A stretch of 24,000 bases of DNA. Source: Pusillimonas sp. ANT_WB101. Lineage in GTDB: Bacteria > Pseudomonadota > Gammaproteobacteria > Burkholderiales > Burkholderiaceae_B. Numbering within the stretch: the first letter of the stretch is position 1; each line of letters begins with the position of its first letter. Below the pieces are notes generated by a model that had not been told where the DNA came from, did no database searches, and saw only the letters and a program-made list of their open reading frames with translations. Positions 3,345 through 20,883 of this stretch are shown one piece after another. Where the stretch lies: positions 1,475,545 to 1,499,544 of the forward strand of contig NZ_VOAY01000001.1 in assembly GCF_008369125.1 (NCBI RefSeq), given 5' to 3'. The position numbers and the translations under genes are program-made.

Positions 3345-3354
3345 GCTGTGCCGC

Positions 3355-3424
3355 CCTTGCCTTGCCTTGCCTTGCCTTGCCTTGCCTTGCCTTGCCTTGC
3401 CTTGCCTTGCCTTGCCTTGCCTTG
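3355..3424. repeat. Perfect pentanucleotide microsatellite (CCTTG)x14
   Basis: Counted directly: 70 bp with 14 uninterrupted CCTTG units. It starts 10 bp after the epimerase stop codon (3342-3344). Confidence 0.98.
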
Positions 3425-3969: not shown

Positions 3970-4563
3970 ATGAGCTTAATCAAATCTGTCGCATTATCGG
4001 CCTGTCTGCTTTGGCCTGTTCTTGTGCCAGTCGCCGTTGCCCAAGATAGTGTGGCAGAGATTCTGGAAAAGGCACGCGCTGAAGCCAGAATTCATAACGA
4101 GTACAAGCTTGCCTTAAACGACCCCGATCCTGGTGTTCGGCTGGCCGTTTTCAATCAAATGCTGCAACAAGACGACCCCGGTCTTCATAAGTTGGCCATT
4201 GAAACTGGCTTAACCAGTGCCGATAGCATGATGCGCTCAACAGCTCTGAAAGGCGCCGTGCTGTCGCTAACGCAACTGCACATCAAACTGGCTGTCGATC
4301 CAAAATCATCTCCGCGACAACAAACTGAGGCGAAAAAATATCTTGAACAGTACGGTTCTGCAATAGCGCTAACCATGCAAAAAAAAGATGAGAAAGAAGG
4401 AGTGTTTACTGCCAGCTCATGGAGTGGCCAAGTCAACAACCTTCAGTTATTACTTCTATATAGCAATATCAACGCAGTGTTGACACTACAGGACGACAAC
4501 TCCCTTAAAGGCACACTAAATCGAAGTAACATTCCATATATCGCATCGATCGATTTATTTTGA
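3970..4563 (+). CDS. Secreted hypothetical protein with HEAT/PBS-lyase-like repeat signature
   Basis: ATG 3970 is preceded by GGGG (3959-3962); the ORF track uses GTG 3958. Signal peptide MSLIKSVALSACLLWPVLVPVAVA-QD. NDPDPGVRLAVFNQMLQQDDP resembles the HEAT_PBS motif. It converges on the protease gene with only 13 bp between the stop codons. Confidence 0.6.
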   Translation: MSLIKSVALSACLLWPVLVPVAVAQDSVAEILEKARAEARIHNEYKLALNDPDPGVRLAVFNQMLQQDDPGLHKLAIETGLTSADSMMRSTALKGAVLSLTQLHIKLAVDPKSSPRQQTEAKKYLEQYGSAIALTMQKKDEKEGVFTASSWSGQVNNLQLLLLYSNINAVLTLQDDNSLKGTLNRSNIPYIASIDLF

Positions 4564-4576
4564 ACCGAACTTAGCA

Positions 4577-5746: not shown

Positions 5747-5751
5747 AAGCC

Positions 5752-6837: not shown

Positions 6838-7580
6838 GGGGTGCCGCCATAAAGAACAGTTACAGAAGCCTTGGGCAATTCACGTCCGTAAATTTCGCGC
6901 TCTATGGTGACTTCAGCCGCGCCTTTTAAAGCAGCCGGCACGTCAACATTGCAGACGTAATCAAAGCTAGTGCGTCGCCCTTCAACGGGTACACAATCGA
7001 CGGCATTCTGATCGGAAAATGATGCATACACATCGGTGGCATTGAACGAATTAATGTACAAACGCAGTTGATGCTGTTCAGCAGAATCAGAACGATGCAC
7101 CACATAGGTATTGCCAGTGGGCGCATCACACGACCCGTTGGCAGCCTGGACGGCGACTTCTAAATTTGCGTATTTAGCGAGAAAAGGCAGTTGTAGAGAT
7201 TTTTTATACGGTAGTAAAACAATATCACCAGGCTGCGTATCTGGCGGGAACACATACTGATTACTGGCCATGTATACGCCATCTCGCGTCAGAACGCTCA
7301 GACAGACTTCAGACGCGGCAGAATTCGCTTCGCTTATGATGGCTAGACTGCCCAGCGCCTTGCCATCTATCACGCTGTTATCAGAAACACCAACGATTAC
7401 TGCGCCGCTCACCACAACATCCTGACTTATGGTTTCGTTAAAAACCCCTTTAAGTGTAGCCATTTTTGGCGGAGCCGCGATTGCCACACTGCTGGCAGCC
7501 GATGCAACGGCAAGCAACACCCGCGCAAGCACATGCCACCGCATACTTGGACCTGGTTCAGGCAGAAAGAGCTTCGGCAT
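6834..7580 (-). CDS. Secreted beta-rich hypothetical protein (4 Cys)
   Basis: 248-aa ORF. AAGGAG SD sits 6 nt upstream of ATG 7580. Signal peptide ...MRWHVLARVLLAVASAASSVAIAAP. No family recognised. Confidence 0.6.
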   Translation of the reverse strand: MPKLFLPEPGPSMRWHVLARVLLAVASAASSVAIAAPPKMATLKGVFNETISQDVVVSGAVIVGVSDNSVIDGKALGSLAIISEANSAASEVCLSVLTRDGVYMASNQYVFPPDTQPGDIVLLPYKKSLQLPFLAKYANLEVAVQAANGSCDAPTGNTYVVHRSDSAEQHQLRLYINSFNATDVYASFSDQNAVDCVPVEGRRTSFDYVCNVDVPAALKGAAEVTIEREIYGRELPKASVTVLYGGTP

Positions 7581-7649: not shown

Positions 7650-8003
7650 CTATTTACGCCAATACTCGTTAGCGGCGGCAATGGTCTGGAAATGCGTAGC
7701 CACAACATGAGAGACGGCGATCAGGCTGTTGGCATCATGAGCATAACTCGGGCGTAGTGCTTTGCGAACAGCTGGGTCAGTTTGGGTGGTTGCCACACCC
7801 TTTTGCGACAACTTTACCGCAAGGGCGAAGCCTGCTTCAGGTGTTTCTGTAATAAGCGTGGCCAAGCCTGCTTTTTGCATTTCAGGCTTGTCTTGGGCAG
7901 AGGCAATACTGATATAGCCTATGGCCAAGGTCACTGCCAACAACGACGTAAAGAGAAATCGCTTTGGCATCCATGTACATCGCCGATATACGGTCGTATT
8001 CAT
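7650..8003 (-). CDS. Small secreted hypothetical protein
   Basis: 117-aa ORF. Hydrophobic signal segment FLFTSLLAVTLAIGYISIASA-QD. The start is either ATG 8003 (GGGGG about 9 nt upstream) or ATG 7970. Likely the first gene of the four-gene operon. Confidence 0.55.
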   Translation of the reverse strand: MNTTVYRRCTWMPKRFLFTSLLAVTLAIGYISIASAQDKPEMQKAGLATLITETPEAGFALAVKLSQKGVATTQTDPAVRKALRPSYAHDANSLIAVSHVVATHFQTIAAANEYWRK

Positions 8004-8220: not shown

Positions 8221-11200
8221 CTACTCTGCGGTAGTGACCGCTACGGACGCAGCGTGCGTTGACACGGCATCGTCAGCCGCCCCACCAATCAATGGCAATA
8301 AGCGGGACAATACGTTTACCTGACTCATTTGGCTTACTGTGGCCACATCGGTACAAAACAAACTCTCGTTACCTACGACTACTGCCAGCGCCTGGGCACG
8401 CGAAATGGCAACATTGATGCGGTGTATATCAAAGAGAAAATCAATGCCGCGCGGCGACTCTGACGCATCGCTGGTACACAGGCTAAAAAAGACGACAGGT
8501 GCTTCTTGCCCCTGAAACTTGTCGACACTACCTACACGGGCCTGCGGCCCAAGCGCTTGCTGTAGTTTATTAACCTGGTGGTTATAAGGTGCGACAAAAA
8601 GCATGTCATCCCATGTAATGGGCCGCGTGCTGCCGTCCTTGGCAATAAACTGTCGCTGCAGACACTGCGCAGCAAGCTTGGCAATAACTTCAACCTCTTC
8701 ATCGCTGGCCTGCGTGTTTCCCTGATGTGCCATGGGCACAAAGACCACACCCGCGCTCTTGTCTAGATTACCTTCATAGCCTTCTGGCACAATAACTTGC
8801 TGTCGGTCGTTATTGGCGTCAGCCTTTAACTGGCCCTGGTAAATGGCGTGGCTAATATAGTGGTTAACGGCAGAATGCATACGAAACGTCGTATCAAGAA
8901 ACACGCCCATGTGCTCGGGAATAATCGGTGAATCATGCAGCAAATAATCGAGTATCGACAAACCACTGTCTGCCGGGTGTGAACCCTGCGACGGTTGCCC
9001 CAACTGCATTTGATCGCCCATTAACACAAGGTTTTTTGTGGCCCGGCTCATGCCCAACAGGTTGGCCACCGATACCTGCCCGGCCTCATCGATAAACAGA
9101 TAATCGAGCTGGTCCACCATCTCGTCGCGGCAAAAACCCCAGGCTGTGGTTCCAATGACGCAGCCGGGTTCCACGCATGATGCGATGGCTTCGTTCTTGG
9201 TCACTACAATGCCATTGCCCGTGACCTCAGGCCCGGTGTCTTTGGTGCAATAACACTGCACGGCAATCGCTTCCGTACGACAGTACTCGGCGACACCCAC
9301 CAACAGGTTGTTGATTGCCTTGTGGCTATTGCTGCTAATACCGATACGCTTACCTTGCTTTACCAGGTGAGCAATAATGTGTTTACCTGTGTAGGTTTTA
9401 CCCGACCCCGGTGGGCCTTGCAGGGTAAGGTAGCTGCCGTCCAGGCGCTCAACGGCGCTAATCACCTGGGCCAATCGTTCGCCAGGCTCAGACGCCGCGA
9501 CTATCGGGCCGCCATCATGCAACGAGATACGCGGCGGATCACGCCGTAAAAAAGCAAGAATGGCGGCGTCGCCCAAAACACCCTCCTCATAGCGCTTGAC
9601 CATATCGTCAATTGCCTTCTGGATGGCTCCGGGGTTCACGTACTCATCGGGTATCAGCGAGATCAGGTCACCCGGATCATTGGCAGACTGCACCACACAC
9701 AAGCCTTCTTTCAGGTTGGACATGTCCGCCAGGAACGTGACCTTGCGCAACGGCTCTTCCAATAGATACATGGACGACTGACGTGGCGTCTTGAATTCTT
9801 GATTGGGGTTGAAGCGGTATTCGTAGGCCAGATTTCTGGCTCTGGTAGTGGGCTTGAACGCTTCTCGCCCAGTACGGCGGCAGTTGGCAAGACAATCAAT
9901 ATCGTCTTCAAGCTCGTCATGACTCAAGCCCAGGCGATCAAACAAGCGCCAAAAAGTGGGCTTGCTTTCACGACGATGAAACTCAAGCATCCACGCCAGG
10001 TTCTCGGTAATACGCGCCTGATCTTCAGGTTCTGTCTCGGCTCGCGCTAATAAACGGTCACGGCGTTGGGTGCGTTCCGTGATTTCGTCGCTGGTTGGTG
10101 GTTCTATCAGCTCGAGCTGGCCGCTGTAAACAAGGCCATGAACGTGCTGCTGCTCACGCAACCAGATGGTAAGTTCTTGCGTTGAGTTGCAGTCATCAAT
10201 GTTGTAGTCGCGAATGTCTTTCAAGATGGCCGACGTTTGCCAGGTATTGCCTTCTTGCCCTTGCTGGTGCAGGTTGCGCCACTGCTCGTAAACAACGACT
10301 GAGTCTCCGCCGCTACCCACCGCTGTGTCGCGTTTGCCGCGATATAAGTGCTCAATATTCTTGATCGAATACTTGGGTTCACCAACGCGAAGGCCGCCCT
10401 TCACGATTTTGTACAAATCTATAAATACATTGTTGCGCAACAGCTGATCAACCTCGTGCTCACCAATGCCGTAACGCCCCATCAACCGCCGGCACGCGGC
10501 GATCTCATAGTTGGCGTAGTGGTAAATGTGCATGGTCGGGTCACGTAGCCAGCGCTCATACACCCAGTGGATAAAATCACTGAATGCCTGTTTTTCTTGC
10601 TCGCGGTCATGTGCCCAGAAATCCTTGAACTGGCGTTGACCGGCGTCATCCAGGTAGGTGCAGCCCCATAAATACTCAAGCCCGCCCTCATCCAGCGGAA
10701 ACCCTTCAATATCGAAAAACACATCCAGATCAGAATGCGGGGGCAACAGCACAAGCCCTGCTTCAGGTTGTTCAGGGTCTGGCGGCAGCACTTCAAACAA
10801 CGGCTTTTCTTGGCCTTGGCTGGCTAACTGAATAGCCGCCTGCGCCTTGAGTTTTGCCATGGTTTCGCTGCTGACACCGCGCACATGCTCAGCCTTTGCG
10901 TCAATGAGTTGCCGGCATGTAGAAATACCTGCCCGGTTTAGTTTTTTGACCTGAGAGCGCGAAATATTGGCTACAAGTGAAAGGTGGTCTTTATCTTGCA
11001 GTAACTGCGCGGCGTATTCAGACCATCGGCCATGGCTTTTTGAATCAGCCGGGTCAGGCATGGCTGTGGAATCAAAAGCTTCTTGCTCCGCCAGAAAGCG
11101 GGCCTTTAGGGCCAGGTAATAGTAGAAGTAGTTTTCGGTCTTCAGGCGCATGCATTCTTGATTACCCAGAGCAACCACAATGTGGTCGGCACGCCGCCCT

Positions 11201-11706
11201 TGCAAGGCCTGGAGCATTTCTACATAACAGCAAAGCTGAACTACAAAATACGGCTTAACCGAGGACGCCAGCTTGGTGTCCCACACTTCGTAATGGTAAT
11301 CGCCTAACGTGCTGGCGCCAGCCACCTTAACCAGAAAATCGGCATGGCCTCTAAACGGCGGCAACTGCAATACAGCCTGATAGATAACATCAGCGCCAGA
11401 CTGCATGGCTTCATGGGTTGCCTGCAGTTTTACAGCGATATTTTTGTTGGCACCGTCGCCCACACTACCTATATCAACAACCCGGAGGCCTTGGGCCTGA
11501 AACTGGCCCAACAGCCCACTTTCATGAACCAGCCCTTTTTCAGCCAGCATGGTATTCAGGGCATCATCCTCATCCCGCTGTGGTGCATCTTGCGGACACT
11601 CCAGTGCCCATCGCGTCATCCACGAGGCGAATGGGCTAGCCATGAAGGTGGTCAAATCGCTTGGGGAGAAAACGAGGTCTTGCTGGTTTCTATACATATA
11701 TGGCAC
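8221..11706 (-). CDS. Multidomain nuclease-helicase: N-terminal PD-(D/E)XK RecB/Cas4-like nuclease (TM0106-type), RNase-H-like module, and C-terminal SF1 Upf1/Dna2-like helicase (AAA_11/AAA_12-type)
   Basis: 1161-aa ORF. Nuclease motifs GHADFLV, YEVWDTKLA and QLCCYVEML (QxxxY). DVFFDIEGFP ... HIYHYANYE is an RNase-H-like exonuclease-fold signature. Walker A LQGPPGSGKTY is encoded at about 9394-9417 and Walker B LFIDEAGQ at 9076-9099. Later helicase motifs are GDQMQLGQP, TTFRMH, VDKFQGQEAPVVFFSL and NVAISRAQ. The start is GTG 11706 or ATG 11697. Confidence 0.85.
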   Translation of the reverse strand: MPYMYRNQQDLVFSPSDLTTFMASPFASWMTRWALECPQDAPQRDEDDALNTMLAEKGLVHESGLLGQFQAQGLRVVDIGSVGDGANKNIAVKLQATHEAMQSGADVIYQAVLQLPPFRGHADFLVKVAGASTLGDYHYEVWDTKLASSVKPYFVVQLCCYVEMLQALQGRRADHIVVALGNQECMRLKTENYFYYYLALKARFLAEQEAFDSTAMPDPADSKSHGRWSEYAAQLLQDKDHLSLVANISRSQVKKLNRAGISTCRQLIDAKAEHVRGVSSETMAKLKAQAAIQLASQGQEKPLFEVLPPDPEQPEAGLVLLPPHSDLDVFFDIEGFPLDEGGLEYLWGCTYLDDAGQRQFKDFWAHDREQEKQAFSDFIHWVYERWLRDPTMHIYHYANYEIAACRRLMGRYGIGEHEVDQLLRNNVFIDLYKIVKGGLRVGEPKYSIKNIEHLYRGKRDTAVGSGGDSVVVYEQWRNLHQQGQEGNTWQTSAILKDIRDYNIDDCNSTQELTIWLREQQHVHGLVYSGQLELIEPPTSDEITERTQRRDRLLARAETEPEDQARITENLAWMLEFHRRESKPTFWRLFDRLGLSHDELEDDIDCLANCRRTGREAFKPTTRARNLAYEYRFNPNQEFKTPRQSSMYLLEEPLRKVTFLADMSNLKEGLCVVQSANDPGDLISLIPDEYVNPGAIQKAIDDMVKRYEEGVLGDAAILAFLRRDPPRISLHDGGPIVAASEPGERLAQVISAVERLDGSYLTLQGPPGSGKTYTGKHIIAHLVKQGKRIGISSNSHKAINNLLVGVAEYCRTEAIAVQCYCTKDTGPEVTGNGIVVTKNEAIASCVEPGCVIGTTAWGFCRDEMVDQLDYLFIDEAGQVSVANLLGMSRATKNLVLMGDQMQLGQPSQGSHPADSGLSILDYLLHDSPIIPEHMGVFLDTTFRMHSAVNHYISHAIYQGQLKADANNDRQQVIVPEGYEGNLDKSAGVVFVPMAHQGNTQASDEEVEVIAKLAAQCLQRQFIAKDGSTRPITWDDMLFVAPYNHQVNKLQQALGPQARVGSVDKFQGQEAPVVFFSLCTSDASESPRGIDFLFDIHRINVAISRAQALAVVVGNESLFCTDVATVSQMSQVNVLSRLLPLIGGAADDAVSTHAASVAVTTAE

Positions 11707-11859
11707 ATACCGCTACGCGTATGTGGAAGACAGTCAGGAGCGAATGCCTTACCGACACTTCAATTGGGAGGCATGCCCGAGAAAAATGAGCGTCACCTTG
11801 TCACTTTGGTCGGTGATACAGACGAAAACACCAACGATGGGAGCGATCAATACCTCACT

Positions 11860-12171
11860 CTAGCGCGGGCAATCAAAATTATAGGTGCCTACGGGCTTGC
11901 CATTTTCGGCGAACTTTAGCTCAATTTGGCACTTGTCTTCGTTGCTGACACTTATCGAAAAGCGCGACAAGGCCGTTGCCTGGTTTGCCACCACCTGCAC
12001 CCCACCACTTTGGCTTACTTGCGACGAGCCACCGCGACCTTCTTTTTTGGCATTTAGCGCGTACTCAAGCTTGCCACTTTTGTCGCTTTTAACGTAGGGA
12101 ATAACCACGCTTGGATGCGTGTCAGGTACGGTTTCGAGCCAAACCTGTAGATTGAAGTCAGCCACCATCAT
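11860..12171 (-). CDS. CsgC/CsgH-like small beta-protein lacking a signal peptide (putative curli amyloid-inhibitor homologue)
   Basis: AGGAG SD (12178-12182) sits 6 nt before ATG 12171. An in-frame TAA at 12190-12192 blocks any N-terminal extension. By-eye ungapped alignment to E. coli CsgC (from memory): VIPYV vs IIPEV, KEG vs REG, and ANQATALSRFSISVSNEDKCQIEL vs ANQPIALTKLSLNISPDDRVKIVV, all with identical spacings. It occupies the csgC position downstream of csgA. Confidence that this is a real CDS is higher (about 0.75) than confidence in the family call. Confidence 0.5.
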   Translation of the reverse strand: MMVADFNLQVWLETVPDTHPSVVIPYVKSDKSGKLEYALNAKKEGRGGSSQVSQSGGVQVVANQATALSRFSISVSNEDKCQIELKFAENGKPVGTYNFDCPR

Positions 12172-12296
12172 TATGTGCTCCTGAAAACATTACTTTAGTT
12201 TATTTCAATTAGGGACGGTGCTCTATTGGAACGTGTTCCGTGCATGATGAACGCGATGCCGTATGGGGCGGGTGAAGATCGCCCCCCCGTCCTGTG

Positions 12297-12337
12297 AAAA
12301 AAGAAAAAAAGGGAGTGCGCCACTGCGGCACACTCCC
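12297..12337 (-). terminator. Rho-independent terminator of curli locus 1
   Basis: Minus-strand RNA reads GGGAGUGUGCC-GCAGU-GGCGCACUCCC (11-bp stem with one G-U pair), followed by UUUUUUUCUUUUUU. It lies 30 nt after the csgA-1 stop codon. Confidence 0.85.
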
Positions 12338-12367
12338 TCTCCTACTACATCATTACATAAGAATAGC

Positions 12368-13540
12368 TTACATCTGAATGGCTGTAGCGACGTTGCCATT
12401 ACCACTTTGAGTGACGGTGGCTACGCCTGAAACAGTAGTACTCGACTGGGAGACATAAGCTGCATTCAAGTTGCCCGACTGCATTACATTAGCTGTCTGA
12501 ATGATGCCTGCGCCATTACCCGACTGATTAACGACAGCCAGCTCAAGAAAGCCAGACTGTGTCACATTAGCGATATGGCCTTTACCACCCTGTGTGATGA
12601 ACGCTGCCTCAAGGCTACCGGACTGGATCACATTGGCTTGAAGTACAGCACCACTTTGATCGACGTGCGCGGTGTTCAAAGCGCCCGACTGTGTCACATT
12701 AGCGTCATTGTAGCTGCCGACCTGCGAGACATTAGCTGTATTGCCAAAGCCTGATTGGATGACAGTAGCCGTCTCCATCGACCCGCGCTGGTAGATATCG
12801 GCTGTATGGCGCGCGCCTGACTGATCTATAGTGGCGGTTTTAGGAAGGTTAGAACCTACCTGAGTGATCGAAGAAGAGTCGTGATCGCCGGTATCCGTAA
12901 TGGAAGCGGTGTTATAGCCTTGCGACGGGTTAAATTGTGCGCTCTGATCAATGATGGCATTGCCATTTGTGGCGCCATTTTGTTCAATCGTTGCCGTTTG
13001 ATAAGAGCCGACTTGGGTGATGGAGGCATTGTTGTCGCTACCGTAACCACCGTAAGAGTTGGCATTGATCGTGGCGACTAGCTTAGTACCGTCCTGCTGG
13101 CTGATGGTACCTGTATTTGAATTACCGTTTTGATAAATCAAACCATAAACGCCAGGATCGCTGCCAGCAGGTGCGCCGACATTGCTCTGGGTTATGCTCC
13201 CTGTGTTGCGGCTACCCCAATTGGTGATATGCCCCTGTGCACCATTGCCATTATCGACTTGGGTGATTGAGCTTGTGTTGCGGTTGGCACCAGGAAGCTC
13301 ATTTATGACAGCGTTCGCGAAGCTAACGTTACCGTCTTGACCGATTGTGCCGGTGTTGCGGTTGCCCTGTTGGTTGATGGTCGCTGTGTTATTTCCCAAG
13401 TGCGAATTTTCCTGCTGGGCGGTAGCAGTATTCAGCGATCCTGGCTGGTCGATGACGATGCTGGAGCTGGCGGCCATTGATGTGCCGGCACCAAAGGCGA
13501 GGGTCAGGCCCAGCGCCAGAGCTGATAAATTGGTTTTCAT
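12368..13540 (-). CDS. csgA: Giant curlin-repeat fibre subunit (CsgA-like), locus 1
   Basis: The start MKTNLSALALGLTLAFGAGTSMA (ATG 13540) is a signal peptide; the ORF-track start at 13597 is likely too long. About 29-30 tandem strand units of about 11 residues carry the curlin signature (A-x-[VI]-x-Q-x-G-x-x-N/x), e.g. ATIDQSGARHT ADIYQRGSMET ATVIQSGFGNT ANVSQVGSYND ANVTQSGALNT. Confidence 0.85.
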   Translation of the reverse strand: MKTNLSALALGLTLAFGAGTSMAASSSIVIDQPGSLNTATAQQENSHLGNNTATINQQGNRNTGTIGQDGNVSFANAVINELPGANRNTSSITQVDNGNGAQGHITNWGSRNTGSITQSNVGAPAGSDPGVYGLIYQNGNSNTGTISQQDGTKLVATINANSYGGYGSDNNASITQVGSYQTATIEQNGATNGNAIIDQSAQFNPSQGYNTASITDTGDHDSSSITQVGSNLPKTATIDQSGARHTADIYQRGSMETATVIQSGFGNTANVSQVGSYNDANVTQSGALNTAHVDQSGAVLQANVIQSGSLEAAFITQGGKGHIANVTQSGFLELAVVNQSGNGAGIIQTANVMQSGNLNAAYVSQSSTTVSGVATVTQSGNGNVATAIQM

Positions 13541-13606
13541 AATGTTATCTCTCGCTATAAGTGTAGGCCGAAAATAAAGAAGCAACCCAGTGGCCATTAG
13601 GCTAGG

Positions 13607-14140
13607 TTACGGTTGAACAACTGTGAAAGAGCCACCAAAACCGATCTGCGTAACAGCGATGGTTTGGTTTCCCAACTGCGTAATATCGATTTGATTGTGG
13701 CCGCCAATTTGTGCGGCGGCGGCGGTGTTTCCGCCGTTGTTCTGATTAATATTGATTTGGTTTTGGAAACCCATCTGGCCGGTGGCCGCCAGATTTCCAT
13801 CCCCATTTTGAGTAATGCGTGCCGAGTTATCGGCGCCGAACAATTGCACGACTGCTGCCATGTTGTCAGAACCATTCTGCAGAATCTGTGCTTCGCTATT
13901 GACGCTCGCAGATGTTTGCAGAATCCGTGCATGCTGGTTGGCACCGCTGCCCTGGGTAATTAACGCCTTGTTCACCTGGCCACTTTGGGATATGGTTGCG
14001 GTCGAACTGTTGGTGCCGGAAAGCTCGCTGGGTGCCAGATCCATCATCGAACCCAGATCAGAGGCATAGGCGCCCGACGCGAGCACGCAAACACTTGCCA
14101 CAAGCGCTAAACGAATACGTTGAATACGTTTGTTATTCAT
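13607..14140 (-). CDS. csgB: Curlin-repeat protein, CsgB-like (nucleator by position), locus 1
   Basis: 177 aa with signal peptide ...VCVLASGAYA. About 11 curlin strand units (ATISQSGQVNK ALITQGSGANQH ARILQ... IDITQLGNQTI AVTQIG). Its ATG overlaps the csgG stop codon (ATGA 14137-14140). It precedes the csgA-like gene, as in csgBA. Confidence 0.8.
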   Translation of the reverse strand: MNNKRIQRIRLALVASVCVLASGAYASDLGSMMDLAPSELSGTNSSTATISQSGQVNKALITQGSGANQHARILQTSASVNSEAQILQNGSDNMAAVVQLFGADNSARITQNGDGNLAATGQMGFQNQININQNNGGNTAAAAQIGGHNQIDITQLGNQTIAVTQIGFGGSFTVVQP

Positions 14141-15108
14141 GGATTACTCCAGGAAAGAGATTTGTAGTCAGCAGCAGCGAAATCAGTTCCGTTGGCTGCC
14201 CCGCTTACGGTCTTCGACGGAACTTCCTCTACATAGGTGCTCTCTTTATTCAAATAATGCTGAATAACAGGGTTGTCCCAGTCTTGCGGGTTCTTCAGTA
14301 CCCACAAATTGTCTTTAACGCCACCCACGATTAAGTGCGCAACTGCCGCTTCAACCGCTTCTTGCACGCACAGCTGCGCGGGCTCGTTGCTGGTAATGCC
14401 GCCTTCAATTTGAAGCAAGTCGTTGAAGTTCACGAACTTGAAGACGCTAGGATGTATCTCGTAGGAATAGATGGTTTTGGTAGTGGAAACGCTTTGCAAA
14501 ACCTCGCCGGTATTGACGTCAACGCTGCGCAAATTAATGCCCACCTGATCCACCCGGTACTGCGCCGATGCACCTACGCCCAAGAACTGCGCACCCAGGC
14601 CCCCCGTGCGAACGTTGCTGTCGTACGAAACAATTCCACCATTAAGCACAATGGAAGCTGGCATAAGGTTAGGAACCCTGACCTTAGACTGCCCATTGCC
14701 GGAGTCCTCGTCATCGATGGCCCGTATCACACGTCTTTCGGTAAGCAGCGACTGCAGATCTTCGCGCTCAACCGGAATAAACCAGCCTGAATCCTTAAGC
14801 GCCTTGATCAGCATAGAGCCAGCGCCTTGCGTGACTGCCGTGGAAAAGGCACTTTCTGGTGAGGGCTTGTACTGCCCGGTCTGATCACGAAAGCCATATA
14901 CAGCCACAACCACCTTGCCTTTGGGCGGAGGAAACTCCAGCAGATCGCGGGTCGCTTTGGTGGGCGGCGTTAAGTGCGCCTCGTTGTGGGTGCCGGAGGG
15001 CGGTACATAAGCGCACGCTCCCAGTAAAACACTTGCCAGTGTGCAGGCAATAGCTACTTTCGTGCGACGGTGCCACGCTGGTGCTTGGGGTGAGTTGTGT
15101 AATTTCAT
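14137..15108 (-). CDS. csgG: Curli secretion channel lipoprotein CsgG, locus 1
   Basis: Lipobox LLGAC. Unmistakable CsgG core: KGKVVVAVYGFRDQTGQYKPSPESAFSTAVTQGAGSMLIKALKDSGWFIPVEREDLQSLLTERRVIRA... SYDSNVRTGG. It has a C-terminal tail of about 35 aa beyond the conserved core. Confidence 0.95.
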   Translation of the reverse strand: MKLHNSPQAPAWHRRTKVAIACTLASVLLGACAYVPPSGTHNEAHLTPPTKATRDLLEFPPPKGKVVVAVYGFRDQTGQYKPSPESAFSTAVTQGAGSMLIKALKDSGWFIPVEREDLQSLLTERRVIRAIDDEDSGNGQSKVRVPNLMPASIVLNGGIVSYDSNVRTGGLGAQFLGVGASAQYRVDQVGINLRSVDVNTGEVLQSVSTTKTIYSYEIHPSVFKFVNFNDLLQIEGGITSNEPAQLCVQEAVEAAVAHLIVGGVKDNLWVLKNPQDWDNPVIQHYLNKESTYVEEVPSKTVSGAANGTDFAAADYKSLSWSNP

Positions 15109-15578
15109 TATTGACCAAACGTGGAAGAGGAAACCTGAAAGGAGGTCGACTGACCCGTCGTTTTATCGGTCGTCGTAATGGTCAGCAACCCGCTACCCGC
15201 GTCTGCCACAACAATCGTGAAGCTTTCCGTATTCACCGTGCCAGGGATCAGATTGCCACTGTTGTCAAATAACTGTGAAGTCGCTGCGGCCGAAATACGG
15301 CTAAGCATGGATTGCTCCAGCGTCTGATTGAATCGATCTAAAGCCGTTTGTTGGCCCAGCTCCGACTTACCCAGATCTCGCGAAGGCGGCTCGTGCTTGT
15401 TTTGTGCCTGAGCGCTGCCCAGAAGGTAATTACCGTTAAGCGGGTTACCGCCAAAACTAGGGTTCACCGGCGTGTAAATGAGCTGCCCGGCACCGGCTGC
15501 CGAAGCAAGCGTAATCGCTGCGGTGGCCGTCAGGACGCGGACTAATCCAGCGCCATGTTTAATGATTAATATGTTCAC
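15108..15578 (-). CDS. csgF: Curli assembly component CsgF, locus 1
   Basis: LIYTPVNPSFGGNPLNGNYLLGSAQAQNKHEPP matches the CsgF N-terminal pore-binding motif (E. coli: [24 protein letters not shown]). The GTG start lies immediately after the csgE TAA. Its stop overlaps the csgG start (TAATG). Confidence 0.9.
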   Translation of the reverse strand: MNILIIKHGAGLVRVLTATAAITLASAAGAGQLIYTPVNPSFGGNPLNGNYLLGSAQAQNKHEPPSRDLGKSELGQQTALDRFNQTLEQSMLSRISAAATSQLFDNSGNLIPGTVNTESFTIVVADAGSGLLTITTTDKTTGQSTSFQVSSSTFGQ

Positions 15579-16037
15579 TTACATTTCCTCTGGACCCAGG
15601 TCAGGGCTTTTGAATAGCCTGAGCTGTATGTTTAGATTGACGATATTTTTATAGGCGATGGCAACCGCCTCTTTGGCGGCTTCTTTCACGCCAGACCGCG
15701 CTGGCGCAAGAAACGTATGGAAAACACGTTGATCCCTGTAGCTCACCCACATCTCACTACCGTACTGAGGGGTGGCTCGTTCATAAATCGTGATCGTGAA
15801 CTTAGAGTCGGGATACAAAGTTTGCCAACGTTCGGAAAAGCTCTTGTAGAAATCCCACCCCAGAACCGTCATGGTTCGGTTAATAATGATCCCGCCCAGC
15901 GGATCTTTATTGATTTCGCCAGAATCACGGACTACGCCGTTATCCCCAGGCCCGAGCTTAGCTGGTGCCTTCGCGAGTGCGCTCTGACATATCAGGACAG
16001 ACACGATCAAGACGAGCGGTATTCCAAATCGCTGCAC
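15579..16037 (-). CDS. csgE: Curli secretion specificity factor CsgE, locus 1
   Basis: GGIIINRTMTVLGWDFYKSFSERWQ ... WVSYRDQRVFHTFLAP resembles the E. coli CsgE core (HDFYRAFSDKWE ... VIFQTFLFP). I place the start at GTG 16037 (GGAG 8 nt upstream), which gives a 22-aa signal peptide collinear with the paralogue. The ORF-track maximum start is 16046. Confidence 0.85.
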   Translation of the reverse strand: MQRFGIPLVLIVSVLICQSALAKAPAKLGPGDNGVVRDSGEINKDPLGGIIINRTMTVLGWDFYKSFSERWQTLYPDSKFTITIYERATPQYGSEMWVSYRDQRVFHTFLAPARSGVKEAAKEAVAIAYKNIVNLNIQLRLFKSPDLGPEEM

Positions 16038-16046
16038 CTTAACCAC

Positions 16047-16624
16047 TCCATGACCAACGTCGCCAACAAAGGCGTCGGGTAATGTGTTCCGACATGTATT
16101 CCCCTAATTTTTATGCGCTAACTTGCTAATTCGTGTTTGATGCTTAATGTAAGCAATTGAACGCAAATTTAAGATAGGCTTTAAGTCGGCTATTAATAGA
16201 GAGCGATATGTGTTAATGAAAAATGCCTGGTTCATACTGAATAAAAACACTCGACAGACGAGGCTACAGCCGTAGGAAATAGTCTGATCGTCTCTACTGA
16301 AAAAACATATAACTGCTAAAACCGCCTATTTATGGCATAAAACACACAAATATAGGCCTTTCACCTTTGTTTTTTGCTTATGATGTCGTTGAAGAAAAGC
16401 CCTCTTTTCTGTCATCAACTAGTAACGCTTCGACTCAGAATGATCGTATTTGTCTGGCCAATATCGCTTATCCGCCATATGGCCTAGGCCATTAATAAAA
16501 ATTAACGAGATTTAACCTTTACTACGTATTTTGATAAAAACACTGTAAGCACGGCGTAACGCATTCAATCTGTAATTAGGTCTGATGATCGTCAATTCCT
16601 GTCTTTCTTCTGATCGACAAGAGG
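16047..16624 (-). promoter_or_regulatory. Long AT-rich non-coding region upstream of curli locus 1 (promoter/regulatory region)
   Basis: About 580 bp with no ORF of 60 aa or more, visibly AT-rich compared with its flanks. It contains CTTGCTAAT (16122-16130), which is shared with the locus-2 upstream region, and a perfect 14-bp palindrome ATGGCCTAGGCCAT (16479-16492). No promoter could be pinned down confidently. Confidence 0.4.
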
Positions 16625-16653
16625 AAAAAAGGGTGTACCGTTGCGATACACCC
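16625..16653 (-). terminator. Rho-independent terminator of curli locus 2
   Basis: Minus-strand RNA reads GGGUGUAUCG-CAA-CGGUACACCC (10-bp stem with one G-U pair), followed by UUUUUU. It lies 34 nt after the csgA-2 stop codon. It has the same architecture as the locus-1 terminator but a different stem sequence. Confidence 0.8.
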
Positions 16654-16687
16654 TCGTTTTCCTGTTACGCCGTTACAGCGGTACAGA

Positions 16688-17848
16688 CTACATCTGCGTA
16701 GCTACAGCCAGGTTGCCAAAGCCGCTTTGATTAATAGTCGCTATGCCTGAAGCTGCAGTGCTGGTCTGGGTTACAAGCGCTGTATTTAAAATACCCGACT
16801 GTGTCACAGTAGCTGTTTGAGACAACCCTGACTGGTTCACGCGCGCAAGCTCAAGTACACCCGACTGCGTCACAGTGGCTGTTTGGGGTTGCATATACGA
16901 GTTGCTCTGCGAGATAAACGCCGCCTCGCCAGTACCCGTTTGCGTCACAATGGCTTTATCGCCACCGGAATCAGCCTGGTCAACTTGTGCCAGGTTGAAC
17001 GCGCCAGACTGGGTCACAATGGCTTTTTGGTAGGTACCCGATAATTGGCTGACGTCAGCCCTGTTACCGAAGCCTGTTTGCAGAACGGTCGCTTGATCCG
17101 AATACCCGTCTTGGCTGATGTTAGCGGTATGCCCTGCTCCTGACTGATCCACAGTGGCCGCGTTGTAGTAGCCGGAACTGGACCCACCCACCTGAGAGAT
17201 GTAAGACGAATCGTGGTTACCCGAATCAGTAATGGAAGCGGTGTCATAGCCAAACAAGGGGCTATAACCTCTATTCTGATCAATGACAGCACTGCCATGC
17301 GTGGCGCCGTTCTGCTCAACCGTGGCGTTCTGATTAACACCAACCTGCGTGATGGCAGCATTGTTATTGCTGCCATGACCGCCATATGTGTTCAGGTTTA
17401 TGGTCGCGCTTTGGTTGCTGCCGTTGCTCTGATCAATGGCGCCAATGTTAGCGTTGCCGTTTTGATAAACCACGCCATAAGCCCCATCAACATTAACCTG
17501 AGCAATGCTTGACGTATTGTGGCTACCCCAGTTTTGGGTGTTTCCGATTGCACCACTGTTACCGGTTTGCGTAATTGTGCTGTTGTTGCCGTTAGCACCC
17601 GTGTTTTCAGTGATGGTGGCCGTCGCGTAGCTGGCGTTGCCGTTCTGGCTGATTTTGCCCGTATTGTGGTCGCCCAGTTGGTTGACGGTTGCGGTGTTAA
17701 TGCCAAGGCCCGAGTTTTGTTGCACGGCTTCGGCAGAGTTTACCGATCCGGGCTGGTTGATGGTGATGGTTGCACTGGCGGCCATCGCAGTGCTGGCGCC
17801 AAAAGCAAGGGCCAGGCCCAATGTTACTGCTGACAAATTAATTCTCAT
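16688..17848 (-). CDS. csgA: Giant curlin-repeat fibre subunit (CsgA-like), locus 2
   Basis: The start MRINLSAVTLGLALAFGASTAMA is at ATG 17848; the ORF-track start at 17893 is a TTG. It is collinear with the locus-1 protein but is clearly the most diverged pair. It has the same 11-residue curlin strand periodicity and the same C-terminal ...ATQM/AIQM ending. Confidence 0.85.
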   Translation of the reverse strand: MRINLSAVTLGLALAFGASTAMAASATITINQPGSVNSAEAVQQNSGLGINTATVNQLGDHNTGKISQNGNASYATATITENTGANGNNSTITQTGNSGAIGNTQNWGSHNTSSIAQVNVDGAYGVVYQNGNANIGAIDQSNGSNQSATINLNTYGGHGSNNNAAITQVGVNQNATVEQNGATHGSAVIDQNRGYSPLFGYDTASITDSGNHDSSYISQVGGSSSGYYNAATVDQSGAGHTANISQDGYSDQATVLQTGFGNRADVSQLSGTYQKAIVTQSGAFNLAQVDQADSGGDKAIVTQTGTGEAAFISQSNSYMQPQTATVTQSGVLELARVNQSGLSQTATVTQSGILNTALVTQTSTAASGIATINQSGFGNLAVATQM

Positions 17849-17914
17849 GATAATACCTATCGCTACAAGTGAAGGCCGAACGTTATAAGGCAACCTAGTG
17901 GCCAGCAGCCTAGG

Positions 17915-18448
17915 CTACGGTTGAACAACTTTGAAGGAACCACCAAAACCGATTTGCGTAACAGCGATGCTTTGGTTTCCCAATTGCGTAATATCGATAT
18001 GATTCTGGGCGCCTATTTGGGCGGCAGCGGCGCTGTTTCCGCCGTTGTTCTGGTTAATGCTGATTTGGTTTCCAGAACCCATCTGGCCGGCGACCGCCAG
18101 ATTGCCATCCCCATTTTGCGTAAGGTTCAGCGCGTTATTGCTGCCTGACAATTGCACAGCCACCGCGTTGTTGCCTGAACCACTTTGCAGGATCTGGGCA
18201 TCGCTGTTGGCAGTTCCTGACGCTTGCAAAATGCGCGCGTGTTGCTGGGCGCCAGTGGCCTGGGTGATCGACGCCCTGCCCAACTGGCCAGCCTGGGTTA
18301 TGTTTGCGGTCGAGTTGGTACCACCTGACAATTCGCTGGGTGCCATATCGCTCATCAAGCCCAAGTCGGAAGCATAGGCACCAGCCCCAAACATACAAGT
18401 GCCCGCCAGAATCGCAACGCAAACACGCTGCACATGTTTATTACTCAT
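17915..18448 (-). CDS. csgB: Curlin-repeat protein, CsgB-like, locus 2
   Basis: 177 aa, the same length as its locus-1 paralogue. Signal peptide ...GTCMFGAGAYA. Curlin strand units. Its ATG overlaps the csgG-2 stop codon (TAATG 18446-18450). Confidence 0.8.
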   Translation of the reverse strand: MSNKHVQRVCVAILAGTCMFGAGAYASDLGLMSDMAPSELSGGTNSTANITQAGQLGRASITQATGAQQHARILQASGTANSDAQILQSGSGNNAVAVQLSGSNNALNLTQNGDGNLAVAGQMGSGNQISINQNNGGNSAAAAQIGAQNHIDITQLGNQSIAVTQIGFGGSFKVVQP

Positions 18449-19422
18449 TAAAGACTCCCTGATGGGGGTGGTGAATCAGCGGTTGTGGCGGTGGCATCAG
18501 CCTTCTTTGCTGTCGCATCAGCGGCCTTGGGCGAGATGGGCTCCACATAGTTACTTTCTTTCTCGAGATAGCGCTGGATCACAGGGTTATTCCAATCCTG
18601 GGCGTTCTTTAGCACCCACAAATGATCTTTCACCCCACCCACTATCAAGTGCGCAACAGCCGCTTCAACCGCTTCCTGCACACACAGCTGCGCGGGTTCG
18701 TTGCTGGTAATGCCGCCTTCGGCCTGCAGCAAATCATTGAAGTTCACAAACTTGAAGACGCTAGGATGTATCTCATACGAATAGATCGTCTTGGTGGTGG
18801 AGACGCTTTGCAAAACTTCGCCCGTGTTGACATCAACGCTGCGCAAGTTGATGCCGACCTGGTCCACCCTGTATTGGGCCGTTGCACCAACCCCCAGAAA
18901 CTGGGCACCCAGGCCTCCGGTTCGCACATTACTGTCGTACGAAACAATGCCACCATTGAGCACAATAGAAGCCGGCATTAGGCTAAGAACCTTCACTTTG
19001 GACTGCCCCGCCGTCGCGTCCTCGTCATCAATTGCACGTATTACGCGTCTTTCGGTAAGTAGCGACTGCAGATCTTCACGCTCTACCGGAATAAACCAAC
19101 CCGAATCCTTGAGCGCCTTAATCAGCATGGAACCGGCACCTTGCGTCACAGCGGTTGAAAAAGCACTCTCTGGTGACGGCTTGTACTGCCCTGTTTCATC
19201 ACGAAAGCCATAAACAGCCACTACCACCTTGCCCTTAGGCGGAGGAAATTGCAGCAGATCGCGCGTGGCTTTAGTGGGCGGCGTCAGGTGCGCTTCGTTG
19301 TGCGTGCCAGCTGGCGGTACAAATGCACAGGCCCCTAATAGCAGGCTCGCCAGTGAACAGGCAACAGCCACTTTCGTAAGATGGAGCCACCGTGGTTGCT
19401 GCGTAAGATAGCGTGATTTCAT
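18448..19422 (-). CDS. csgG: Curli secretion channel lipoprotein CsgG, locus 2
   Basis: Lipobox LLGAC. The core is nearly identical in protein sequence to locus-1 CsgG. The C-terminal tail is different: Ala/Thr/Pro-rich (PKAADATAKKADATATTADSPPPSGSL). Confidence 0.95.
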   Translation of the reverse strand: MKSRYLTQQPRWLHLTKVAVACSLASLLLGACAFVPPAGTHNEAHLTPPTKATRDLLQFPPPKGKVVVAVYGFRDETGQYKPSPESAFSTAVTQGAGSMLIKALKDSGWFIPVEREDLQSLLTERRVIRAIDDEDATAGQSKVKVLSLMPASIVLNGGIVSYDSNVRTGGLGAQFLGVGATAQYRVDQVGINLRSVDVNTGEVLQSVSTTKTIYSYEIHPSVFKFVNFNDLLQAEGGITSNEPAQLCVQEAVEAAVAHLIVGGVKDHLWVLKNAQDWNNPVIQRYLEKESNYVEPISPKAADATAKKADATATTADSPPPSGSL

Positions 19423-19892
19423 TATTGACCAAACGTAGAAGAGGAGACCTGAAAGGAGGTCGTCTGACCAGTCGTTTTGTCGGTCGTGGTAATCGTTAAC
19501 AACCCGCTGCCCGCGTCGGCCACGACAATGGAAAAGTCCTGCGTGTTCACCGTGCCGGGGATGAGGTTGCCGCTGTTATCAAACAACTGAGAGGTCGCCG
19601 CGGCCGAAATCCTACTAAGCATGGATTGCTCCAGCGTCTGGTTGAAGCGATCCAGCGGCGTCTGCTGGCCCAGGTCCGATGCACCAAGATCCGGCGAAGA
19701 CGGCTCGTGCTTGTTTTGCGCTTGGGCGCTACTGAGAAGGTAATTGCCATTAAGCGGGTTGCCCCCAAAATTTGGGTTGACCGGCGTATAGGTGAGCGGA
19801 GTCGCTCCTGCTGCTGAAGCCAGCGTCACTGCCACTGCGGCCGCCAAGGCGCGGGCTAATCCAGCACCTCGTTTATCCATATAGTTGTTCAT
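19422..19892 (-). CDS. csgF: Curli assembly component CsgF, locus 2
   Basis: LTYTPVNPNFGGNPLNGNYLLSSAQAQNKHEPS. ATG 19892 lies directly after the csgE-2 TAA. Its stop overlaps the csgG-2 start (TAATG). Confidence 0.9.
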   Translation of the reverse strand: MNNYMDKRGAGLARALAAAVAVTLASAAGATPLTYTPVNPNFGGNPLNGNYLLSSAQAQNKHEPSSPDLGASDLGQQTPLDRFNQTLEQSMLSRISAAATSQLFDNSGNLIPGTVNTQDFSIVVADAGSGLLTITTTDKTTGQTTSFQVSSSTFGQ

Positions 19893-20378
19893 TTACATTT
19901 CCTCCGGACCCAGATCGGGGCTTTTGACTAGCCTGCGCTGTATGTTGAGATCAATGATGTTTTTGTAAGCGATTTCGACCGCCTGACTGCTCGCTTGCTT
20001 CACGCCAGACCGTGCAGGCGCGAGAAATGTATGAAACACGCGCTCGTCCTTGTAGCTCACCCAAATCTCGCTACCGAATTGGGGGGTCGCTCTTTCGTAC
20101 ACGGTTGTTGTGAAGGTCGAATCGGGATGCAAAGTCTGCCAAAGCCCAGAAAAGCTTTTGTAAAAATCCCATCCCAGAACCGTCATGGTTCGGTTGATGA
20201 TGATGCCGCCTAGCGGATCGTTATCAATCTGCCCCGAATCAAGGCGCGTGCCTGCGCTCGAAAGCGTGGTCTTGGCGGGCTTCATTCCATGGGAGATCGT
20301 GGAGGATGTCTTTGCCAGTGCATTCTGGCCAGCCAAGGCAAACACGATCACCGCAAGCTGTATAGAGCATCGCAGCAC
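19893..20378 (-). CDS. csgE: Curli secretion specificity factor CsgE, locus 2
   Basis: The core GGIIINRTMTVLGWDFYKSFSGLWQ ... is shared with locus 1. I favour GTG 20378 as the start (AGGA 9 nt upstream), which gives the signal peptide MLRCSIQLAVIVFALAGQNALA, collinear with locus 1. The ORF-track maximum start is GTG 20444. Confidence 0.8.
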   Translation of the reverse strand: MLRCSIQLAVIVFALAGQNALAKTSSTISHGMKPAKTTLSSAGTRLDSGQIDNDPLGGIIINRTMTVLGWDFYKSFSGLWQTLHPDSTFTTTVYERATPQFGSEIWVSYKDERVFHTFLAPARSGVKQASSQAVEIAYKNIIDLNIQRRLVKSPDLGPEEM

Positions 20379-20883
20379 TTTCCCGTTTCCTCGGCCATGC
20401 TTGCCTGGAAAAACGCCGAAAGACACATTGAAAAAATAAAGCACTTTGATCGTTTCTGTATTTAATTAAGAATTGCTAATTTACACCTATTACAAAACGT
20501 CAAATAGAAAAGATTAGTGAATTTTTACATTTGAAAGATTTTTTGGTCGAGCCATATCCTAAACCCAGCAAATAAGGCCCTCGGTTTCTGTGCGAGTTGG
20601 CAGGCTGAAGCAATGACATCGACACCCTGGTCCTGAGAGGCCTCATGCTGCTAACAGCAGCTAAATTGAAGGCAAAACATATCGATACGCAGCGTTATTA
20701 CTGTTATTTTTTAGCTTGCTAATCGCGAGTTTTTGTCTAATCTTGTGCCCTAGGGCATCTTTAAATAAACAAACTCAGGTGTGAATTAGCGTGGAATTTT
20801 AAGCTTTACAGACGCATCGGCTAGATGTACTAGGCTGTTAACCATATGGCATTTACTTACGATTAGTGCTAGATAATGAGAAT

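What the first reader, a model, noticed from the sequence alone, without database searches (positions are those of the whole stretch)
11860..12171. Leaderless CsgC-like ORF downstream of the locus-1 terminator: a possible non-periplasmic amyloid inhibitor
A 103-aa ORF with a textbook SD (AGGAG, 6 nt spacing) sits where csgC sits in csgBAC.

By eye it aligns without gaps to E. coli CsgC as I recall that sequence:
- VIPYV vs IIPEV
- the same 21-residue distance to KEG vs REG
- the same 16-residue distance to ANQATALSRFSISVSNEDKCQIEL vs ANQPIALTKLSLNISPDDRVKIVV

Three things are unexpected:
1. There is no signal peptide. The ORF begins MMVADFNLQVW, and an in-frame TAA at 12190-12192 excludes a longer N-terminus. 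Yet CsgC and CsgH are known to act in the periplasm.
2. The CsgC CxC motif position reads GKL.
3. There is only one copy for two curli loci, and it lies behind a strong terminator, so it probably has its own promoter.

Inference: a cytoplasmic, or non-Sec exported, CsgC-family protein would be a new twist. It might guard the cytoplasm against premature aggregation of the giant curlins.
Basis: partly seen in the sequence, partly recalled or inferred. Interest (0 to 1): 0.7.

Follow-up and report, generated by a model that had tools for sequence, protein, structure and literature searches.

The report
Signal-less CsgC/CsgH-type curli chaperone gene
The small gene behind the curli fibre genes really does encode a relative of the amyloid-blocking proteins CsgC/CsgH that has no export signal, and this signal-less form turns out to be a large conserved clade whose cellular location is an open, testable question.

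Summary
The ORF at 11860-12171 (-) is real. It is under strong purifying selection (dN/dS 0.07-0.09). It belongs to the CsgC/CsgH family: Pfam Tafi-CsgC scores 45 bits against a cut-off of 25, NCBIfam CsgH scores 50 against 35, and the AlphaFold model's two best PDB matches are CsgH and CsgC.

It has no signal peptide. The first beta-strand of the fold starts at residue 8, the N-terminus is acidic, and an in-frame TAA lies 18 nt upstream.

This is not a local error. All 11 related loci I checked start at the same position. Of 157 family sequences examined (the window protein, its 10 close homologues and profile-search representatives at 50% identity), 126 are about 100-105 aa and signal-less. 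The six signal-less loci that carry enough upstream sequence sit in csgEFG-BA loci as the only CsgC/H gene; one close ortholog is an orphan with no adjacent curli genes.

These are the only invariant columns across 52 diverse signal-less members, and they co-vary as C/C or Y/Y in relatives that carry a signal peptide. That pattern looks like a disulfide and argues against a purely cytoplasmic life.

Best reading (about 0.45): a sub-stoichiometric amyloid inhibitor of the CsgH kind that stays in the cytoplasm and acts on curlins before export. Main rival (about 0.3): export by an unrecognised route. It is a new variant of a known kind.

The parts
11860..12171 (-). Signal-less CsgC/CsgH-family gene (103 aa; the stop codon is 11860-11862). 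Seven predicted beta-strands at residues 8-15, 21-29, 33-45, 48-60, 71-73, 80-89 and 92-100. Conserved cysteines C81 and C101.
12178..12182 (-). Shine-Dalgarno AGGAG, six nt before the ATG. It is conserved in the close relatives L002 and L003.
12190..12192 (-). In-frame TAA 18 nt upstream of the ATG. It excludes a longer N-terminus.
12172..12296 (-). 5' region between the terminator and the start codon. At least the proximal 53 nt (up to about 125 nt) is shared with the orphan ortholog of strain CGII-56, which has no curli operon upstream. It is a candidate own-promoter region, but no sigma-70 consensus and no Rfam family were found.
12305..12343 (-). Intrinsic terminator-like hairpin (18 pairs, followed by a T-run) after csgA of locus 1. 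Comparable hairpins sit between csgA and the signal-less csgH in L006, L008, L009 and L011.
12368..13597 (-). Major curlin CsgA-like, locus 1 (ORF 409 aa; the likely start is the MKTNLSAL Met at about 13540). Seven Curlin_rpt matches, a Sec signal peptide, pI 4.8.
13607..16046 (-). Rest of curli locus 1: csgB-like 13607-14140, csgG 14137-15108, csgF 15108-15578, csgE 15579-16046. All four carry signal peptides.
16688..20444 (-). Curli locus 2, a tandem paralog with no CsgC/H gene of its own: csgA-like 16688-17893, csgB-like 17915-18448, csgG 18448-19422, csgF 19422-19892, csgE 19893-20444.

Best explanation
The gene encodes a genuine member of the CsgC/CsgH family of curli amyloid inhibitors. 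It belongs to a large clade that has lost the N-terminal signal peptide, and I found no description of that clade in the searchable literature.

The protein is essentially the mature seven-stranded beta-sandwich with a Met in front. Having no Sec or Tat signal, it most likely stays in the cytoplasm. There it would act like CsgC/CsgH do in the periplasm, through transient, charge-guided, sub-stoichiometric encounters. These would keep the acidic, multi-repeat curlins CsgA and CsgB of both loci unfolded and competent for Sec until they are exported.

Low expression relative to csgA would come from the terminator between the two genes (read-through), from a weak promoter of its own, or from both.

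**Shown:** family membership, the fold, absence of a signal peptide, conservation of that state, linkage to curli loci, purifying selection.

**Inferred:** cytoplasmic location, inhibitor activity, the client proteins, and the mode of expression.
For: **Family**
- Pfam PF10610 scores 45.3 bits against a cut-off of 25.
- NCBIfam CsgH scores 49.8 against 35.
- The AlphaFold2 model has pLDDT 86 and seven strands.
- Its top two Foldseek PDB hits are CsgH 2n59 (E = 1.5e-6, TM 0.71) and CsgC 2xsk (E = 2e-5, TM 0.75).

**No leader**
- Strand A starts at residue 8.
- The N-terminus is acidic and has no hydrophobic core, unlike all ten other Csg proteins of the window.
- An in-frame stop or non-signal sequence lies upstream in all 11 loci examined.

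**Conserved state**
- The 10 close homologues are 102-105 aa and share the same start.
- 126 of 157 family sequences examined are signal-less and form one large clade.

**Selection**
- dN/dS is 0.066-0.086.

**Curli linkage**
- The gene lies downstream of csgEFG-BA in L002 and L004-L008. The same holds for members only 24-28% identical (L009-L011).
- No second CsgC/H gene is present in any locus.

**Inhibitor-like surface**
- pI is 6.55, against 4.6-4.8 for the CsgAs.
- K/R residues are enriched at alternate positions of strands 3 and 4. PMC4838910 and PMC5135000 place the functional positive patch there.

**A cytoplasmic need exists**
- The literature invokes DnaK, Hsp33 and YedX for keeping pre-CsgA soluble in the cytoplasm (PMC12925577, PMC6123696).
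Against: - C81 and C101 are the only invariant columns across 52 signal-less members that share 24-56% identity with the window protein. The pair is kept in 117 of 126 signal-less sequences.
- The same two columns are C/C or Y/Y in relatives that carry a signal peptide, so the two residues touch. That is the signature of a structural disulfide, which normally forms only outside the cytoplasm.
- A small subclade nested in the signal-less clade (P0056, P0099, P0126) has classical signal peptides, the same cysteine pair and the same locus position.
- No localisation, expression or activity data exist.
- No promoter was found.
- SignalP and TatP could not be run. The absence of a leader rests on composition and on the position of the fold.
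Confidence: 0.45

Rival explanations
1. The protein is a periplasmic or extracellular CsgH-type inhibitor after all. It leaves the cytoplasm by a route that needs no classical N-terminal signal, such as an unrecognised export signal, piggy-back transport, or release by lysis or vesicles. It is then stabilised by a C81-C101 disulfide.
For: - The cysteine pair is invariant and the two residues are in contact.
- Each subfamily of CsgC/CsgH has its own disulfide (PMC4838910).
- Close relatives with a signal peptide share the cysteine pair and the locus position.
- The known function of the family is periplasmic (PMC5135000).
- The type member CsgC is treated as mature from residue 9, so its leader is unusually short.
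Against: - There is no hydrophobic segment anywhere in the 103 aa, no basic n-region and no twin-arginine motif.
- No conserved exporter gene accompanies the clade.
- No Csg partner has a conserved Tat motif.
- The leader has stayed lost across more than 100 clusters at 50% identity.
Confidence: 0.3
2. The signal-less clade has been re-purposed. It would be a cytoplasmic beta-sandwich with a role other than plain amyloid inhibition. Examples are a thiol-based redox-switched holdase, or a sensor or regulator of curlin production in loci that lack csgD.
For: - An invariant cysteine pair in a protein with no leader fits a redox switch.
- The orphan ortholog in CGII-56 is intact and under purifying selection although it has no adjacent curli operon.
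- These loci have no csgD.
Against: - Linkage to curli genes is conserved in the signal-less loci examined except the orphan.
- The positively charged positions on strands 3 and 4 are retained.
- There is no DNA-binding or enzymatic feature.
- CGII-56 has a second curli locus 45 kb away that the orphan could serve.
Confidence: 0.15
3. It is an artefact or a remnant. Either the start is mis-called or a sequencing error hides a signal peptide, or the gene is a decaying csgC pseudogene.
For: None beyond the initial suspicion. The gene does lie behind a terminator.
Against: - Independent assemblies show the same start and the same upstream stop.
- The N-terminus is among the best conserved parts of the protein.
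- dN/dS is about 0.07.
- 126 signal-less family sequences exist.
- No frame of the 196-nt spacer encodes a hydrophobic peptide.
Confidence: 0.03

Closest known systems
CsgH (Rhodopseudomonas palustris CsgH, PDB 2n59; CsgH-like proteins as defined in PMC4838910)
   Same: - It has the seven-stranded Ig-like sandwich and is the best structural match.
- Its two cysteines are far apart in sequence.
- It sits next to the curlin genes in a single csgEFG-BA-type locus without csgD.
- The NCBIfam CsgH model is passed.
   Different: - It has no signal peptide.
[quoted passage not shown]
- Pfam CsgH is below its cut-off (22.9 against 27).
- Structure-based sequence identity to CsgH is 18%.
- Its profile is closer to CsgC than to CsgH.
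CsgC / AgfC of E. coli and Salmonella (PDB 2xsk, 2y2t)
   Same: - It aligns without gaps over 75-84 residues.
- It matches Pfam Tafi-CsgC.
- It occupies the position after csgA, behind a terminator-like element.
- It has a similar pI, about 2 units above that of CsgA.
   Different: - The CxC motif is replaced by GKL.
- The NCBIfam CsgC equivalog cut-off is not reached (49.5 against 75).
- The short hydrophobic leader of CsgC (MNTLLLLAAL, sequence from memory) is replaced by the acidic MMVADFNL.
Cytoplasmic inhibitors of CsgA aggregation in E. coli (DnaK, Hsp33, YedX; PMC12925577, PMC6123696)
   Same: They have the same proposed place and purpose: keeping curlins soluble before Sec export. YedX is also a small beta-sandwich.
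   Different: Those are general or unrelated proteins encoded away from the curli genes. This one is a CsgC/H homologue encoded inside the curli locus.

Membership tests
CsgC/CsgH superfamily (Pfam PF10610 / PF21112) | Profile match above the curated threshold | tested here: met
   PF10610 scores 45.3 bits against 25. PF21112 scores only 22.9 against 27. A clade profile against PDB gives CsgC at 5e-10 and CsgH at 1.7e-6.
CsgC/CsgH superfamily (Pfam PF10610 / PF21112) | Seven-stranded Ig-like beta-sandwish fold closest to CsgC/CsgH | tested here: met
   The AlphaFold2 model has pLDDT 86 and seven strands. The two best Foldseek PDB hits are 2n59 and 2xsk, and every other hit has E > 1e-3.
CsgC/CsgH superfamily (Pfam PF10610 / PF21112) | Encoded next to the curlin subunit genes | tested here: met
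   The window; L002 and L004-L008; L009-L011. The exception is the orphan copy L003.
CsgC/CsgH superfamily (Pfam PF10610 / PF21112) | N-terminal signal peptide and periplasmic location | tested here: not met
   There is no hydrophobic or basic N-terminus, and the fold starts at residue 8. An upstream stop is present. Location itself cannot be tested with these tools.
CsgC/CsgH superfamily (Pfam PF10610 / PF21112) | Sub-stoichiometric inhibition of CsgA amyloid formation | not testable with these tools
   This needs a ThT assay with purified proteins.
CsgC/CsgH superfamily (Pfam PF10610 / PF21112) | Positive patch on strands 3-4 and a pI about 2 units above that of CsgA | tested here: inconclusive
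   pI is 6.55 against 4.6-4.8. K/R frequency is 30-50% at positions 36, 38, 40, 43, 49 and 51 across the clade. No surface electrostatics were computed.
CsgC in the strict sense | CxC motif in strand 2/3 | tested here: not met
   GKL aligns with CLC.
CsgC in the strict sense | NCBIfam equivalog NF007507 cut-off | tested here: not met
   49.5 bits against 75.
CsgH-like (PMC4838910) | Two cysteines distant in sequence | tested here: met
   C81 and C101 are invariant in the clade. NCBIfam NF041112 scores 49.8 against 35.
CsgH-like (PMC4838910) | [quoted passage not shown] | tested here: not met
   Both cysteines lie at the open end of the last hairpin (strands 80-89 and 92-100).

The most novel reading that the evidence does not exclude
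A widespread clade of curli-locus-encoded CsgC/H inhibitors has dispensed with the signal peptide. The named members are all Burkholderiales. The clade spans more than 100 clusters at 50% identity.

The novel reading is that it works in the cytoplasm. That would make it the first dedicated, operon-encoded cytoplasmic guard against premature curlin amyloid formation. Its invariant cysteine pair could serve as a redox switch.

The alternative is equally novel: these proteins reveal a signal-independent route to the periplasm.
Probability: 0.45. Interest if true: 0.75.

Novelty: new variant of a known kind. Interest (0 to 1): 0.6.

Why it matters
How bacteria keep highly amyloid-prone curlins harmless between the ribosome and the Sec channel is an open question. 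So far it has been answered only with general chaperones (DnaK, Hsp33) or the unlinked YedX.

A CsgC/H homologue that is encoded in the curli locus but made without any export signal gives a concrete candidate to test. It also presents a clean puzzle: a disulfide-like cysteine pair in a protein with no leader. Fractionation and thiol-trapping experiments could settle that.

The result also shows that automatic annotation as a CsgH "periplasmic chaperone" hides a major architectural split in the family.

Tried and rejected
- **Longer N-terminus, frameshift or alternative start.** Rejected. In-frame stops lie 9-18 nt upstream in four loci. Where the frame stays open, the upstream sequence is non-hydrophobic and has no start codon. 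No frame of the 196-nt spacer encodes a leader.
- **A second, signal-bearing CsgC/H gene.** None found in the window or in any related locus.
- **Tat piggy-back export.** No conserved twin-arginine motif in the Csg partners. CsgG1 has HRRT, but CsgG2 does not.
- **A neighbouring exporter.** The MacB-type ABC genes are present only in the closest relative.
- **A sigma-70 promoter in 11600-12500.** None found.
- **An Rfam element in the spacer.** Only chance-level hits.
- **Profile search with the word-indexed protein database.** It added few distant members, 21 hits in all.
- **AFDB fold search.** The library was unavailable.
- **Literature.** The searches found no paper that mentions a signal-less CsgC/CsgH. 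Neither PMC4838910 nor PMC5135000 contains the word 'signal'.

Full report
**1.

- The minus-strand ORF at 11860-12171 encodes 103 aa beginning MMVADFNLQVWLETV.
- AGGAG (12182-12178) precedes the ATG by six nt, and an in-frame TAA occupies 12192-12190.
- The window carries two tandem curli loci on the same strand, each in the order csgE-F-G-B-A: 20444-16688 and 16046-12368. The ORF follows the second csgA after a 196-nt spacer.
- That spacer contains an 18-bp-stem, T-tailed terminator at 12343-12305.
- The by-eye alignment to E. coli CsgC is reproduced by phmmer against PDB 2xsk. It is gapless (query 13-87 against chain 9-83) and places GKL opposite the CLC motif.

**2. Family membership**

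| Model | Score (bits) | Cut-off |
|---|---|---|
| Pfam Tafi-CsgC (PF10610) | 45.3 | 25 |
| Pfam CsgH (PF21112) | 22.9 | 27 |
| NCBIfam CsgH subfamily | 49.8 | 35 |
| NCBIfam CsgC equivalog | 49.5 | 75 |

- An AlphaFold2 model built on 11 homologues has pLDDT 86 and seven strands.
- Its only two Foldseek PDB hits below E = 1e-3 are R. palustris CsgH (E = 1.5e-6, TM 0.71) and E. coli CsgC (E = 2e-5, TM 0.75).
- Taylor et al. 2016 (PMC4838910) define CsgC-like proteins by a CxC motif and CsgH-like proteins by two distant cysteines, and they note beta-proteobacterial CsgH subfamilies.
- This protein has C81 and C101, so by that rule it is CsgH-like. That explains the "missing" CxC.
- By sequence profile the clade is nevertheless nearer to CsgC (5e-10) than to CsgH (1.7e-6).

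**3. The missing signal peptide is real and ancient**

- The first strand of the fold begins at residue 8.
- The first 27 residues contain D5, E13 and D17 and no Lys or Arg.
- The maximum hydrophobic 10-mer is 1.0. The ten other Csg proteins of the window score 2.0-3.5 and have basic n-regions.
- The ten closest database homologues (56-98% identity) are 102-105 aa and have the same start. The N-terminal 22 residues are among the best conserved.
- Eleven related loci start at the same codon. These comprise seven genome loci (a 'Melaminivora sp.' MAG, two Alcaligenaceae isolates, a Burkholderiaceae MAG, Candidimonas, Castellaniella) and three metagenomic loci.
- Upstream of that codon they have either an in-frame stop 9-54 nt away or non-hydrophobic sequence with no start codon.
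- A profile search of 1.84 billion representatives gave 346 hits.
- I examined 157 sequences: the window protein, its close homologues and the best 150 hits, minus those outside 90-230 aa.
  - 126 have 14 or fewer residues before the conserved Trp of strand A.
  - They read like M-x-x-D-x-D-L-Q-V-W-L-E-T.
- In a neighbour-joining tree the signal-less proteins form one large clade.
  - Most signal-bearing proteins fall outside it.
  - A small signal-bearing subclade (P0056, P0099, P0126) is nested inside it. The tree is rough and has no support values.
- Where sources name the organism, the members come from Burkholderiales: Alcaligenaceae, Pusillimonas, Candidimonas, Castellaniella and Burkholderiaceae.

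**4. It is a working curli gene**

- dN/dS is 0.086 against L002 and 0.066 against L003.
- The gene follows csgEFG-BA in L002 and L004-L008.
- Members only 24-28% identical are also embedded in curli loci.
  - L009 and L010 have the order csgEFG-(B)A-H.
  - L011 has csgBA-H-EFG, with csgH overlapping csgE by 13 nt.
- No locus has a second CsgC/H-type ORF.
- The signal-bearing relative P0099 occupies the same slot, only 8 nt after csgA.
- By contrast, the window and several signal-less loci (L006, L008, L009, L011) have a GC-rich hairpin plus T-run between csgA and csgH. This would keep csgH expression well below that of csgA, which suits a sub-stoichiometric inhibitor.
- pI is 6.55, against 4.6-4.8 for the two CsgAs.
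- Lys and Arg are enriched at alternate positions of strands 3 and 4. Published mutagenesis puts the functional positive patch there (PMC4838910, PMC5135000).

**5. The own-promoter question**

- No sigma-70-like site was found in 11600-12500, and no Rfam element either.
- Strain CGII-56 (L003) has the ortholog (94% aa identity) next to the same helicase and HTHP genes, but no curli genes upstream.
- Its homology with the window begins 53 nt (blastn) to about 125 nt (MAFFT) before the ATG.
- The gene can therefore persist, under purifying selection, as a unit separate from the operon. That fits a promoter in 12172-12296.
- CGII-56 has another curli locus with its own signal-less csgH 45 kb away (L008).

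**6. The complication: the cysteine pair**

- Across 52 diverse signal-less members (24-56% identity to the query) the only invariant columns are C81 and C101.
- 117 of the 126 signal-less sequences keep both.
- In signal-bearing relatives the same two columns are C/C (8 sequences) or Y/Y (6 sequences). This co-variation indicates that the residues touch. They lie at the open end of the last hairpin.
- This is what a structural disulfide looks like, and disulfides normally form outside the cytoplasm.
- Each CsgC/H subfamily has its own disulfide position (PMC4838910). This clade would add a third.

**7. Weighing the explanations**

- A protein with no signal of any kind is cytoplasmic by default. 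The leader has stayed lost across a very large clade, and no exporter or Tat partner co-occurs.
- Against that stand the cysteine pair and the family's periplasmic history.
- My estimates:

| Explanation | Probability |
|---|---|
| Cytoplasmic CsgH-type inhibitor acting on curlins before export | about 0.45 |
| Export by an unrecognised route | about 0.30 |
| Re-purposed cytoplasmic function, such as a redox-switched holdase or a sensor | about 0.15 |
| Artefact or remnant | about 0.03 |

- The literature I could search treats CsgC/CsgH as periplasmic and never mentions a signal-less form.
- Cytoplasmic control of CsgA is currently ascribed to DnaK, Hsp33 and YedX (PMC12925577, PMC6123696).

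**8. Caveats**

- SignalP and TatP were not available.
- The E. coli CsgC precursor sequence used for comparison comes from memory. Its leader is very short: the field uses CsgC 9-110 as the mature form. The contrast with this protein is therefore mainly in hydrophobicity, with a length difference of only about 4-5 residues.
- Most clade members are metagenomic and have no taxonomy.

**9. Verdict**

- The thing itself is a new variant of a known kind: a signal-less, cysteine-pair-bearing subfamily of CsgC/CsgH.
- It poses a clear, experimentally tractable question about where the protein acts.

Noticed in passing
window 12368-20444: There are two tandem csgE-F-G-B-A loci on the minus strand. 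The paralogs share about 57% (CsgA), 67% (CsgB, CsgE), 83% (CsgF) and 86-89% (CsgG) identity. Both CsgAs are about 400 aa with 5-7 recognised curlin repeats. The closest relative (L002, a MAG) shows only one locus.
   Followed up: partly
L003 5948-6312 (Alcaligenaceae bacterium CGII-56): An orphan ortholog of the signal-less csgH (94% aa identity, dN/dS 0.066) has no curli genes upstream. Homology to the window starts only 53 to about 125 nt before the ATG. The same contig has a second curli locus with its own signal-less csgH 45 kb away (L008).
   Followed up: partly
window 3351-7539: A segment of about 4.2 kb is absent from strain CGII-56, so it is an insertion or deletion relative to L003. 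It carries ORFs of 389, 361, 248, 201 and 129 aa. The 389-, 361-, 248- and 201-aa ORFs have no Pfam match, and none of the five has an NCBIfam match. It could be a mobile or defence islet.
   Followed up: partly
window 8221-11706 (-): Immediately downstream of csgH lies a 1161-aa protein that combines a TM0106-family RecB-like nuclease / RNase_H_2 domain with an SF1 helicase (AAA_11/AAA_12). It gives weak hits to the anti-phage helicase models PLuB and ProA.
   Followed up: partly
P0106 (protein): A 7223-aa protein contains 26 stretches that match the CsgC/H-clade profile. The fold is therefore also used as a repeat module in a giant, presumably surface, protein.
   Followed up: no
L012 4045-4054 compared with window 12172-12367: Signal-bearing relatives of the clade sit 8 nt after csgA with no terminator. 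The window and several signal-less loci are separated from csgA by a hairpin plus T-run. Loss of the leader may therefore go with a change in expression coupling.
   Followed up: partly
L011 2103-2399: The gene order is different: csgB/A-like, then csgH, then csgEFG. The signal-less csgH overlaps csgE by 13 nt, and a canonical terminator lies 43 nt before csgH.
   Followed up: no
window 7650-8003 (-): A hexameric tyrosine-coordinated haem protein (HTHP, PF11534) with an apparent signal peptide. It is conserved next to the helicase in CGII-56.
   Followed up: no
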